A stretch of 5,022 nt of DNA from Octopus sinensis (taxonomy: Eukaryota): positions 1 to 5,022 of the forward strand of contig NW_021830346.1 in assembly GCF_006345805.1 (NCBI RefSeq), read 5' to 3'. The notes below the pieces were generated by a model. The model was not told where the DNA came from, made no database searches, and saw nothing but the letters and a program-made list of their open reading frames with translations. Below, piece after piece: positions 1,350 through 4,033 of the stretch (position 1 is its first letter; every line of letters begins with the position of its first letter). The translations under genes and the position numbers were made by a program.

Positions 1350-1500
1350 ATCTATCTATCTATCTATCTATCTATATATCTATCTATCTATCCCTCTATC
1401 TATCTATCTATCTATCTATCTATATATCTATCTATCTATCTACTATCTATCTATCTATCTCTATATATATATCTATTATATATATATCTATATATATATT

Positions 1501-1535
<35 letters not shown>

Positions 1536-1538
1536 TAT
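1287..1538. repeat. Compound microsatellite: (TATC)n grading into (TA)n
   Basis: About 170 nt of TATC units followed by a TA-rich run. It produces the spurious IYLS-repeat ORF 1258..1512. Confidence 0.95.
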
Positions 1539-1554
1539 ATTTATTATATAGAGG

Positions 1555-1605
1555 AGCTTCGACAGGACTAGAACTGTTTCATTCAAGAGAAATCTTCAGG
1601 AAGCT
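1555..1605 (-). ncRNA. Type I hammerhead ribozyme motif, - strand, predicted cleavage after GUC (position 1561)
   Basis: Mirror image of the + strand motif. CUGAAGA at 1599-1593, GAAA at 1580-1577, stem III ACAG/CUGU, and stem I AGCUUC/GAAGCU. The triplet is the canonical GUC (1563-1561) because position 1561 is G on the + strand. Confidence 0.8.
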
Positions 1606-1652
1606 TCCTGAAGATTTCTCTTGAATGAAACAGTTCTAGTCCTGTAGAAGCT
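1602..1652 (+). ncRNA. Type I hammerhead ribozyme motif, + strand, predicted cleavage after GUA (A1646)
   Basis: Stem I AGCUUC (1602-1607)/GAAGCU (1647-1652), extendable by AGG/CCU around one bulged A. Core CUGAAGA at 1608-1614. Stem II UUC/GAA with loop UCUU and a U.U pair at its base (1615-1626). GAAA at 1627-1630. Stem III ACAG (1630-1633)/CUGU (1642-1645) with loop UUCUAGUC. NUH triplet is GUA. All conserved core nucleotides are present; activity is untested. Confidence 0.8.
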
Positions 1653-1799
1653 CCTTCTATATAATAAATTAATTTTACTCTGCTATGTATTGAGTACCTT
1701 ATTTACTGTGGTTAACCCCGAATCAACCCGGGACCTACATATATAATTAGATATTATATATATATACATGCAACATCCATACATAAATACATTACATAC

Positions 1800-1966: not shown

Positions 1967-2150
1967 ATAAAAAATCTCTTAGGAATGAGAACCCAGGTTC
2001 AAAATTTGTCCAAGACACCCGATGGAGGCTGGAGGGTATATCAGCCGAAACGTTGTGTTAACAACAAACAAGATGAGGAAAAATATCTGTCAAATGTAAA
2101 TAATGTAAAGGATTTACATAATTCCTCATCTCTTAACTATAGAACTGTAT
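1967..2150 (+). mobile_element. Penelope-like element (PLE) terminal-repeat (pLTR) fragment
   Basis: Non-coding segment abutting a (TAA)n/(CAA)n tract. It carries a minimal hammerhead of the kind known from PLE pLTRs and a downstream hairpin, and it resembles from memory a very common Octopus repeat. No RT or GIY-YIG coding sequence is visible, so the PLE assignment is inferred. Confidence 0.6.
2014..2059 (+). ncRNA. Degenerate minimal type I hammerhead ribozyme motif (PLE type)
   Basis: Stem I GACAC (2014-2018)/GUGUU (2055-2059). Core reads CCGAUGGA (2019-2026) instead of CUGAUGA. Stem II GGCUGG (2027-2032)/UCAGCC (2041-2046). GAAA at 2047-2050. Stem III is reduced to the palindrome ACGU (2050-2053), and the triplet is GUU (cut after 2054). 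The core substitutions suggest this copy is impaired. Confidence 0.65.
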
Positions 2151-2185: not shown

Positions 2186-2269
2186 CCTGTATTTATTCAG
2201 GGATTACTCTGTGGCTTCGGAGAGTTTTGACTCTTATTTTTAGCAAAGCAGGTTCTTATTGAGTACCCT
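2186..2269 (+). repeat. Diverged direct repeat, copy 1 of 2
   Basis: Hand alignment to 2615-2696 gives about 66 of 84 identical positions with 2 gaps. Shared blocks include GTTTTGACTC, TTTAGCAAA, CTTATT and GTACCCT. Confidence 0.85.
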
Positions 2270-2614
2270 AATATATATATTGAGTACCTTACTATATTCA
2301 AATATATTTCTATATTTCATATATATTTATGAATTTTGTCTATTCGGTTTTTATGCTTGAGGCCACAATGTTCTTTTATATTTTTAAATAATTTCACATA
2401 GTCCGCTTGCTTCAATGATGCTTGGGCAATCACACGAACGTAGGCATTAATGTAGCGAATGTGAGTAATTGTTACAAGTAGATCTAGCAGAGATGAATTG
2501 AGTGACTTTGGCGCTAAATTCGAAATCCTGTTATCAGATTAACTGACATTCCTTTTGCAACCTTTGCGGAGATAAGACGCAATTCTCATTCGCTTAAATA
2601 TTTTTCCTATTATG

Positions 2615-3345: not shown

Positions 3346-4033
3346 CAGTGTGTTCGGGCTAAATTTGACAGTTTGCATAACAGAAATCTAAACAAATTAT
3401 TTTTTTAAATCCCCAAAATATCAACTAGATGATGGCTGGGAGGTAACAGTTTGCCCAAAGTAGCTGCCTTCGTCTTCCATCACGAACTCAAGACGGCTCC
3501 GGAACCTAGCACACTTGTTCCTCACTGTGTCCCAAGGAAGATCCCCTTATACTCTATTGAGATTAGCCACTATCCTAGTCTTGGTTTTGCAGACAGAGCG
3601 GTTGATGTCTTTCTCAACTGCATTCTAACAAATAATAATCTATGATGTTACAATTGGGGAAATTAGGAGGTCAAAAATTTGGGCTAGTGAAGTAGAAATT
3701 CTCCGAAAACCACTTCTGAATCTGTCCGGAGTTGTGGCACGGAACCGGATTTTGCTAACACACGTAATGCCATCCAGGACAAACCTTCTCCAGTCGTGAA
3801 TTGACCAGTCTCCAGCAGTTTTACATAGTCATCTGAATTAAGCCTAAGGACCTGTTCAATGATGTGGGGCGGCGGCATGGCAGCACCGTCACCGGAAACA
3901 CACTCAAGGACCATCGCAGTTTGGGAGAACTTGGTTTCCATGGTGTTCTGTTACAGCGTACAGCTTTTCCAAGTTTCACAGATCATTGTGCAGTAGTCAT
4001 GATGTCGGCTTTTTGAACCCCGGCTTGGATGGA
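3346..4033 (-). mobile_element. Decayed IS630-Tc1-mariner DNA transposon, DD37D/maT-like, internally deleted, 5' end not found
   Basis: Transposase remnant on the - strand plus a candidate terminal inverted repeat CAGTGTGTTCGGGCTAAATTTGACAG starting at 3346, which resembles the CAGGGTG start typical of this group. No matching second TIR was seen downstream in the window. Confidence 0.8.
3451..4033 (-). pseudogene. Tc1/mariner-superfamily (DD37D-like) transposase pseudogene
   Basis: Hand translation across frameshifts near 3806 and 3622: METKFSQTAMVLECVSGDGAAMPPPHIIEQVLRLNSDDYVKLLET / VNSRLEKVCPGWHYVC*QNPVPCHNSGQIQKWFSENFYFTSPNF*PPNFPNCNIIDYY / AVEKDINRSVCKTKTRIVANLNRV*GDLPWDTVRNKCARFRSRLEFVMEDEGSYFG. 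These correspond to the family motifs QQDSAPCH, WPPNSPDCNPxDYY and CxRFRSRxEAVxxAxGGYxE. In-frame stops occur at 3755-3757, 3671-3673 and 3547-3549. The second catalytic Asp reads Asn (3749-3751), with 36 codons between it and the third Asp (3638-3640). The upstream segment SIQAGVQKADIMTTAQ*SVKLGKAVR (4033 to ~3956) is a less certain N-terminal remnant. Confidence 0.88.

What the first reader, a model, noticed from the sequence alone, without database searches (positions are those of the whole stretch)
1555..1652. Back-to-back pair of complete hammerhead ribozymes on opposite strands inside one palindrome
Seen: each arm of the palindrome folds into a full type I hammerhead (stem I AGCUUC/GAAGCU, CUGAAGA, short stem II, GAAA, 4-bp stem III, NUH). 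The two motifs overlap in the central AGCT, so the locus encodes a candidate self-cleaving RNA in either direction of transcription. Known: hammerheads mark the terminal repeats of Penelope-like retroelements and retrozymes, and PLE insertions can carry inverted terminal duplications. Inferred: this is a fold-back duplication of a PLE/retrozyme terminus, or possibly a small palindromic two-polarity ribozyme element that targets TA-rich microsatellites. Caveat: the U.U pair at the base of stem II is non-canonical and may weaken activity.
Basis: partly seen in the sequence, partly recalled or inferred. Interest (0 to 1): 0.85.

Follow-up and report, generated by a model that had tools for sequence, protein, structure and literature searches.

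The report
Head-to-head Penelope retroelement mini-insertion
This 200-base palindrome is one of over a thousand similar stubs of a Penelope-like jumping gene in this genome, each likely made by joining two short DNA copies of the front end of the element's RNA; the two ribozyme motifs are real but are predicted to be locked in a hairpin, so the value lies in what the stubs suggest about how these elements insert.

Summary
In detail: a 42-bp perfect palindrome with a type I hammerhead motif on each strand. It is not a one-off. The 202-base unit is the shortest form of a Penelope-like element (PLE) with Hydra-clade motifs; long copies carry RT plus GIY-YIG. About 1,140 back-to-back stubs occur across at least three subfamily groups (170 with this exact junction). 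All 81 examined have a 69-base tail on one arm only and, where read, sit in (TA)n. Their junctions vary but stop at the first base of hammerhead stem I, 29 bases below a TATA motif, often with one extra G. Junctions at the ribozyme cleavage site are rare (12 loci). In long copies either arm can be the longer one. Best reading: two cDNAs, primed from both target strands at two internal sites of an uncleaved, sense, probably capped RNA, run to its 5' end and anneal through AGCT. A read-through transcript folds into a hairpin about 70 kcal/mol more stable than the ribozyme, so a two-polarity ribozyme replicon is not supported. Inverted junctions and tails are known in PLEs; the fixed 5' stop and its bearing on the sense-versus-antisense template question were not found in the papers searched.

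The parts
1539..1740 (.). Whole mini-insertion: short inverted arm + junction + long arm with tail
   Evidence: 40 of 40 scored genome matches cover the unit at 99-100% identity, 419 candidates; unrelated flanks in 30 loci
1602..1652 (+). Type I hammerhead motif, bases +1 to +51 of the element's putative RNA; predicted cleavage 1646/1647
   Evidence: descriptor scan; identical to the pLTR hammerhead upstream of the parent ORF
1555..1605 (-). Second copy of the same hammerhead on the short arm; predicted cleavage 1561/1560; H17 = C private to this copy
1600..1607 (.). Head-to-head junction; both arms end at +1 and share AGCT (1602-1605)
   Evidence: 170 loci with this exact junction among 496 back-to-back pairs of this subfamily group
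1653..1669 (+). AT-rich stretch (+52 to +68) at which short arms end: inferred first priming site
   Evidence: short arms end at about +62 to +72 (table 7, 69)
1670..1738 (+). One-sided 'tail' (+69 to +137) with an AC-rich stem-loop at 1710-1735; its end is the inferred second priming site
   Evidence: tail on exactly one arm in 81 of 81 stubs and 23 of 23 long pairs; continues into the 5' UTR and ATG at +184 in the parent; fold
1539..1554 (-). End of the short arm (+52 to +68, one base deleted)
1460..1538 (.). Left (TA)n-rich target
   Evidence: sequence; TRF array
1739..1766 (.). Right (TA)n-rich target; the first ATAT also matches the parent sequence after the tail

Best explanation
The palindrome is the shortest insertion product of a Penelope-like retroelement with Hydra-clade motifs, likely made when the element's reverse transcriptase primed twice from a cut (TA)n target and the two short cDNAs were joined head-to-head at the 5' end of an uncleaved sense RNA. 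SHOWN: the sequence is bases +1 to +137 and, inverted, +1 to +68 of the element's pLTR; the parent encodes RT and GIY-YIG; stubs recur by the hundreds with one-sided tails and a sharp stop at +1. INFERRED: (1) a TATA promoter in the pLTR starts a capped RNA at the first base of hammerhead stem I; (2) the endonuclease cuts both strands of a TA repeat; (3) the two 3' ends prime at AT-rich sites near +68 and +137, which gives the one-sided tail; (4) both cDNAs reach the RNA 5' end, often adding a C opposite the cap; (5) their self-complementary AGCT ends anneal (or join by short microhomology or templated inserts) and each cDNA templates the other's second strand. The product lacks the promoter and is likely a dead end; RNA read through it would form a long hairpin, not two working ribozymes.
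For: [quoted passage not shown] Hot spot: 12 of 35 outward-facing core pairs in the first 100 rows are 4-15 bases apart, none 16-107, the other 23 span 108-7,463. Counts: 496 + 588 + 57 back-to-back pairs in three subfamily groups, controls 0 (nearby duplicates included). Tail on one arm only in 81 of 81 stubs (51 of 51 among those not retrieved with the tail) and 23 of 23 long pairs. TATAAA at -29; TATAAA or CATAAA at the same place in four sister subfamilies whose -1 to -20 differ. Where an insert separates the arms, the base beyond +1 on the cDNA strand is C in 27 of 34 arms and never the parental base (p about 5e-8 against 1/3); the extra G also shows in the subfamily whose genomic -1 is C. 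In 23 resolved long pairs the tail arm is longer in 17 and the short-end arm in 6, by 0.4-4.5 kb (9 ambiguous and 1 two-tailed of 33 left out): a single folded cDNA cannot give the 6. RT does not stop at +1 in ORF-adjacent copies: 15 of 15 that reach it run through. Only 12 loci have junctions near the cleavage site, 1 with both arms exactly there. A purified PLE protein cut and extended both strands, started at two internal sites flanking the tail, used uncleaved RNA and was modelled as a dimer (PMC11167929).
Against: No RNA 5' end was seen: only contigs were available. 0 of 20 ORF-adjacent pLTR copies begin at +1, so no full-length copy of a +1-initiated RNA was found. The extra C could also come from terminal transferase activity, or from snap-back onto the stem I complement (8 of 27 have a second C; one matches 5 bases). 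Both arms of a locus carried the same subfamily marks wherever I looked, which does not separate one RNA from two. Deletions after insertion could explain some of the 6 short-arm-longer cases. The tail (69 bases) is longer than the 30-40 reported. That RT copies the cap as C is recalled, not from a call.
Confidence: 0.65

Rival explanations
1. Single-cDNA fold-back or self-priming (the published reading for PLE inverted junctions, on an antisense template): one strand folds on itself at the hammerhead and is copied back, giving the inverted arm.
For: Proposed for rotifer PLEs from palindromes at head-to-head junctions (PMC3846280 Discussion). Arms match within a locus. A minority junction fits a CTTC/GAAG hairpin (L072, L092).
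Against: The commonest junction (170 of 496) has no loop at all, which suits annealing of two ends. The short-end arm is the longer one in 6 of 23 long pairs. The TATA at -29 and the extra G point to a sense 5' end.
Confidence: 0.17
2. Same two-cDNA insertion, but the stop at +1 is caused by structure (the cDNA copy of stem I snapping back) or by RNA processing, not by a capped transcription start.
For: +1 is exactly the 5' edge of stem I; snap-back would also add C; no full-length copy starts at +1.
Against: 15 of 15 ORF-adjacent copies that reach +1 run through it, where about a third should stop; most extra-C arms (19 of 27) have only one C; the TATA spacing is kept across subfamilies.
Confidence: 0.13
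3. A small self-propagating palindromic element (MITE-like, retrozyme-like or viroid-like) that uses hammerheads of both polarities to process its own RNA.
For: 170 copies share one junction and are about 99% identical; each isolated arm can reach the hammerhead fold at 2.4-3.4 kcal/mol cost.
Against: Two thirds of the 496 junctions differ; stubs arise separately in each subfamily; the full transcript buries both ribozymes by 69.5 and 70.7 kcal/mol; no promoter in the stub; 9 of 9 neighbouring repeats of one junction are direct duplications that include flanks; few junctions at the cleavage site.
Confidence: 0.04
4. Assembly or library artefact (fold-back chimera).
For: The window is a small contig; palindromes are a known long-read artefact (recalled).
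Against: Hundreds of chromosome-placed copies with unrelated flanks, a fixed one-sided tail and subfamily-specific marks.
Confidence: 0.01

Closest known systems
Hydra-clade Penelope-like elements (Craig et al. 2021, PMC8557442)
   Same: C-terminal GIY-YIG, DKT, RW(R/K), CxCx5C linker, CxxC and CxH around the conserved E and N, no CCHH, (TA)n target; hammerhead with U.U under stem II and an ACAG/CTGT stem III as in several listed members.
   Different: A 3' UTR of about 3.3 kb makes the unit about 5.5 kb (published members mostly under 3 kb); the hammerhead differs from that of Hydra-1_Obim and a motif from it is absent from the paper's supplement; the paper's passages I read do not describe 200-base back-to-back stubs.
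Inverted pLTRs with a one-sided tail in Penelope elements (PMC3846280; PMC8557442 Fig. 2 legend)
   Same: Head-to-head inverted copy, palindrome at the junction, tail at one end, TATA and initiator in the pLTR.
   Different: Here about a third of paired insertions are nothing but the two arms, the junction sits at a fixed base, and the tail is 69 rather than 30-40 bases.
Poseidon element of Anolis (PAc) in vitro (PMC11167929)
   Same: Two internal RT start sites bracketing the tail, an AC-rich stem-loop, both strands cut and extended, uncleaved RNA used.
   Different: Another clade; there the sites lie inside the ORF, here in the 5' UTR; that paper does not explain the inverted junction.
L1 twin priming (recalled, not read here)
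   Same: Both target strands prime cDNA, and the two cDNAs join by microhomology to give an inversion.
   Different: In L1 the two cDNAs cover different parts of the RNA; here they overlap and both run to the 5' end, giving an inverted duplication.
Non-LTR retrozymes (10.64898/2026.07.22.740005, first fifth read)
   Same: Short non-coding, hammerhead-bearing derivatives of PLE pLTRs.
   Different: Retrozymes are head-to-tail arrays that can release monomers; this is a single head-to-head pair predicted to be inactive.

Membership tests
Type I hammerhead ribozyme | CUGANGA and GAAA cores, NUH site, three stems with open stem I | tested here: met
   descriptor scan, both arms
Type I hammerhead ribozyme | Match to an Rfam hammerhead model | tested here: not met
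   no hammerhead family at E<=5 or E<=10
Type I hammerhead ribozyme | Core and stems conserved or covarying among relatives | tested here: inconclusive
   subfamily changes fall in N7, loop II and loop III, plus a G.U-compatible change in stem I; no compensatory pairs; subfamilies are close and many arms were retrieved by patterns fixing the core
Type I hammerhead ribozyme | Self-cleavage at the predicted site | not testable with these tools
   folding only: 2.4-3.4 kcal/mol cost in an isolated arm, 9.5 in the parent's first 200 bases, about 70 in the palindrome
Penelope-like element (EN+) | Single ORF with RT and GIY-YIG in the parent | tested here: met
   motifs read by eye in ORFs; look-alike clusters carry HTH_animal and, in 26-50% of members of some, GIY-YIG; Pfam scans and the PDB search themselves gave nothing useful
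Penelope-like element (EN+) | pLTR in partial tandem upstream of the ORF, holding the hammerhead | tested here: met
   20 ORF-adjacent copies
Penelope-like element (EN+) | Inverted 5'-truncated copy and one-sided tail | tested here: met
Hydra clade | DKT, RWK, CxCx5C, CxxC and CxH around E and N, no CCHH | tested here: met
   DKT, CNCPDKTTC, CDLC and CMH in P0002; RWR in L206, RWK in 8 of 9 homologs
Hydra clade | (TA)n insertion preference | tested here: met
   30 of 30 loci
Hydra clade | Generally short (<3 kb) | tested here: not met
   about 3.3 kb between stop codon and hammerhead; a tendency in the paper, not a strict criterion
Hydra clade | Placement in the clade by RT phylogeny with reference elements | not tested
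Non-LTR retrozyme | Head-to-tail tandem units, each with a hammerhead | tested here: not met
   head-to-head pair; nearby repeats are duplications with flanks
Two-polarity viroid-like RNA | Both ribozymes usable in a replicating unit-length RNA with one conserved sequence | tested here: not met
   varied junctions, separate origin per subfamily, hairpin lock; circular RNA itself not testable
MITE (DNA transposon derivative) | Terminal inverted repeats at both ends | tested here: not met
   the inverted repeat is internal and one end carries a 69-base tail

The most novel reading that the evidence does not exclude
The stubs are a genomic fossil record of the PLE integration reaction: a sense, capped, uncleaved RNA that begins with the hammerhead is copied from two sites by primers from both target strands, and the two cDNAs anneal end to end so that no separate second-strand priming is needed. 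This would explain in one step the head-to-head repeats, the one-sided tail and the missing target duplications of PLEs, would overturn the antisense self-priming reading, and would make this retroelement a steady source of more than a thousand near-perfect 65-bp hairpins.
Probability: 0.5. Interest if true: 0.72.

Novelty: new variant of a known kind. Interest (0 to 1): 0.52.

Why it matters
How PLEs form their inverted junctions and tails, and whether they copy a sense or an antisense RNA, is named as open in PMC3846280 and PMC8557442; the in vitro work in PMC11167929 leaves the later steps unvalidated. This family offers over a thousand short, young, nearly identical products with a fixed end, plus a minimal substrate of about 140 bases, so the two-primer model can be tested directly. 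It also warns that opposite-strand hammerhead pairs in animal genomes need not be viroid-like replicons, and that automatic tools may file such stubs as MITEs or miRNA hairpins. The ribozyme pair itself is likely inert.

Tried and rejected
Rfam: no hammerhead hit. Pfam on the parent protein and on homologs: only a sub-threshold VtrA_C hit, judged spurious, or nothing; PDB profile search: no hit. RNA evidence: no RNA holder listed on record; the 14 runs holding it that are guessed to be RNA are kept as contigs only. Laying four runs cannot show starts or strand; the loose ends at +1 in X1 and X9 are the upstream sequence of a sister subfamily, not RNA starts; one contig in X15 has a single G before +1, too little to count. 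Cleavage-site hot spot: looked for, not found (12 loci; one ORF-adjacent copy, L200, starts within two bases of the site). Diverged protein hits were decayed copies of the same family and gave no covariation. Neighbouring identical junctions were checked for re-mobilisation of stubs: 9 of 9 are direct duplications with flanks. The search for a paper on cap-derived G gave nothing relevant, so that point rests on recall. 'Not found in print' rests on seven searches of an open-access library that lacks most subscription papers; Repbase and Dfam were not searchable, and bioRxiv supplements were not seen. Earlier scan findings were not available. The species was not determined, and no related genomes were on offer.

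Full report
Observation. A perfect 42-bp palindrome is centred at 1603/1604 and extends to about 68 bp per arm; a descriptor scan of both strands of the window finds two type I hammerhead motifs, one per arm, overlapping at AGCT, with predicted cleavage at 1646/1647 and 1561/1560. Rfam models do not recognise them. The two arm differences (H17 and a 1-base deletion) are private to this copy.

It is a repeat. The 202-base unit 1539-1740 matched 40 of 40 scored places at 99-100% (419 candidates); the 30 loci read have unrelated flanks and all sit in (TA)n. The 26-base core occurs 2,794 times exactly (control 0), mostly as outward-facing pairs. Of 35 pairs in the first 100 rows, 12 are 4-15 bases apart, none 16-107, and 23 are 108-7,463 apart. 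Back-to-back pairs number 496 in the window's subfamily group (170 with its exact junction), 588 and 57 in two sister groups (nearby duplicates are included, so about 1,140).

Parent. [quoted passage not shown] In 20 copies the arm and tail run on into the 5' UTR and an ATG at +184, the pLTR arrangement of PLEs. The protein has DKT, RWR, CxCx5C, CxxC and CxH and lacks CCHH, the marks given for the Hydra clade; 802 homologs were found, the best at about 40-54% identity. Pfam and PDB gave no useful hit; Atlas look-alikes carry HTH_animal and GIY-YIG. No tree was built, so clade membership rests on motifs. The published Hydra hammerheads often have the same U.U under stem II, and several have the same stem III; this family's hammerhead differs from Hydra-1_Obim.

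Anatomy of the stubs. Numbering from the A of stem I as +1, the window copy is +1 to +137 joined head-to-head to +1 to +68. The 69-base tail is on exactly one arm in 81 of 81 stubs (30 were retrieved with a query holding the tail; 51 were not) and in 23 of 23 long pairs. Junctions vary but almost never pass +1. In the parent a TATAAA lies at -29, and TATAAA or CATAAA is kept at that place in four sister subfamilies whose bases -1 to -20 differ. In 43 junctions examined by script, 34 arms reached +1 beside an insert; the next base on the cDNA strand was C in 27, T in 6, G in 1 and never the parental A. This is what copying a cap would leave (recalled), though terminal transferase or snap-back on the stem I complement could also add C. 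Arms that stop one base short are followed by A in 17 of 23 cases, which I cannot explain.

Against a role for cleavage. Only 12 loci have junctions near the cleavage site, and one has both arms starting exactly there. The copied RNA was therefore mostly uncut, as reported for PAc in vitro. Folding puts the hammerhead 2.4-3.4 kcal/mol above the ensemble in an isolated arm, 9.5 in the parent's first 200 bases, and 69.5 and 70.7 in the full palindrome on the two strands. Subfamily differences fall in N7 and loops II and III, with no compensatory changes; the sample is biased by how arms were retrieved. So the hammerhead is plausibly functional in the parent and is predicted to be inert in the stub.

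One cDNA or two. In 33 long pairs each arm is a clean sense-derived segment. Of 23 resolved, the tail arm is longer in 17 and the short-end arm in 6; 9 were ambiguous and 1 had two tails. A single cDNA folding back cannot make the tail-less arm the longer one, short of later deletions. The commonest stub junction has no loop, which fits two ends annealing through AGCT. RT does not stall at +1 as such: 15 of 15 ORF-adjacent copies that reach it run through. The same call shows a gap in my reading: none of 20 such copies begins at +1, so no full-length copy of a +1-initiated RNA was seen. I take the stubs to come from RNAs used at their 5'-proximal sites, for example transcripts from the many terminal pLTRs; that is inference.

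Mechanism, most likely (0.65). Shown: identity with the parent's pLTR, the one-sided tail, the sharp stop, the extra base, the arm asymmetry. Inferred: a capped sense RNA starting at +1; two nicks in (TA)n; priming near +68 and +137; end-to-end joining; each cDNA templating the other. Rivals: fold-back or antisense self-priming (0.17), a structural or processing stop (0.13), a two-polarity replicon (0.04), artefact (0.01).

Known and new. Inverted pLTRs, junction palindromes, tails and opposite-strand hammerhead pairs 100-700 bp apart are in print (PMC3846280, PMC8557442, PMC4209133). The fixed stop below a TATA, the extra G and the abundance of two-arm stubs were not found in seven library searches. 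Papers seen: PMC11167929 and PMC4209133, first two of four parts of the text; PMC8557442, outline, passages, section 11, a supplement search and part 2 of 59 of the supplement; PMC3846280, passages and Discussion; 10.64898/2026.07.22.740005, first of five parts; PMC13282606 and PMC13000458, passages only. L1 twin priming and cap copying are recalled.

Verdict. A real feature, a new variant of a known kind. The exotic reading (two working ribozymes) is not supported. Interest 0.52, because the stubs make an open question about PLE integration directly testable.

Noticed in passing
window 1975-2150 (+), motif at 2014-2059: A second repeat family with a minimal hammerhead (5-bp stems I and II, no loop III). 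Relatives mostly read CTGATGA or CCGATGA in the core; this copy has two core changes. 2,208 candidates; copies sit after (TAA)n and some are head-to-head (L273, L274). Likely the end of another PLE family.
   Followed up: partly
window 2257-2297: Two tandem 21-base units that share 17 of 18 bases with the tail at 1684-1701; perhaps scraps of the same family.
   Followed up: no
window 3430-3990 (-): Broken coding-like stretch that recalls a Tc1/mariner transposase (recalled resemblance); a Pfam scan of 3687-3950 found nothing.
   Followed up: partly
L126-L165 junctions: Inserts between the arms are often short copies of neighbouring core sequence, as in templated end-joining; arms ending at +2 are followed by A on the cDNA strand in 17 of 23 cases.
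   Followed up: partly
window 1644-1660: A competing hairpin covers the cleavage site and the 3' strand of stem I in RNAs that extend past +60 or start upstream; one extra 5' G shifts the predicted fold back to the hammerhead (stem I pairing 0.19 to 0.85). A possible switch.
   Followed up: partly
window 1634-1641 (loop III): Loop III is partly self-complementary, and a subfamily variant makes it more so (duplex -12.8 to -15.2 kcal/mol), consistent with dimeric cleavage.
   Followed up: partly
L256-L263, L072: Stubs duplicated in direct orientation with 0.4-1.5 kb of flank: local tandem duplications or assembly duplicates.
   Followed up: yes
L098:1807-2959 (+): RT fragment of a different PLE-like family next to an arm that starts close to +1; not the Hydra-type protein.
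   Followed up: no
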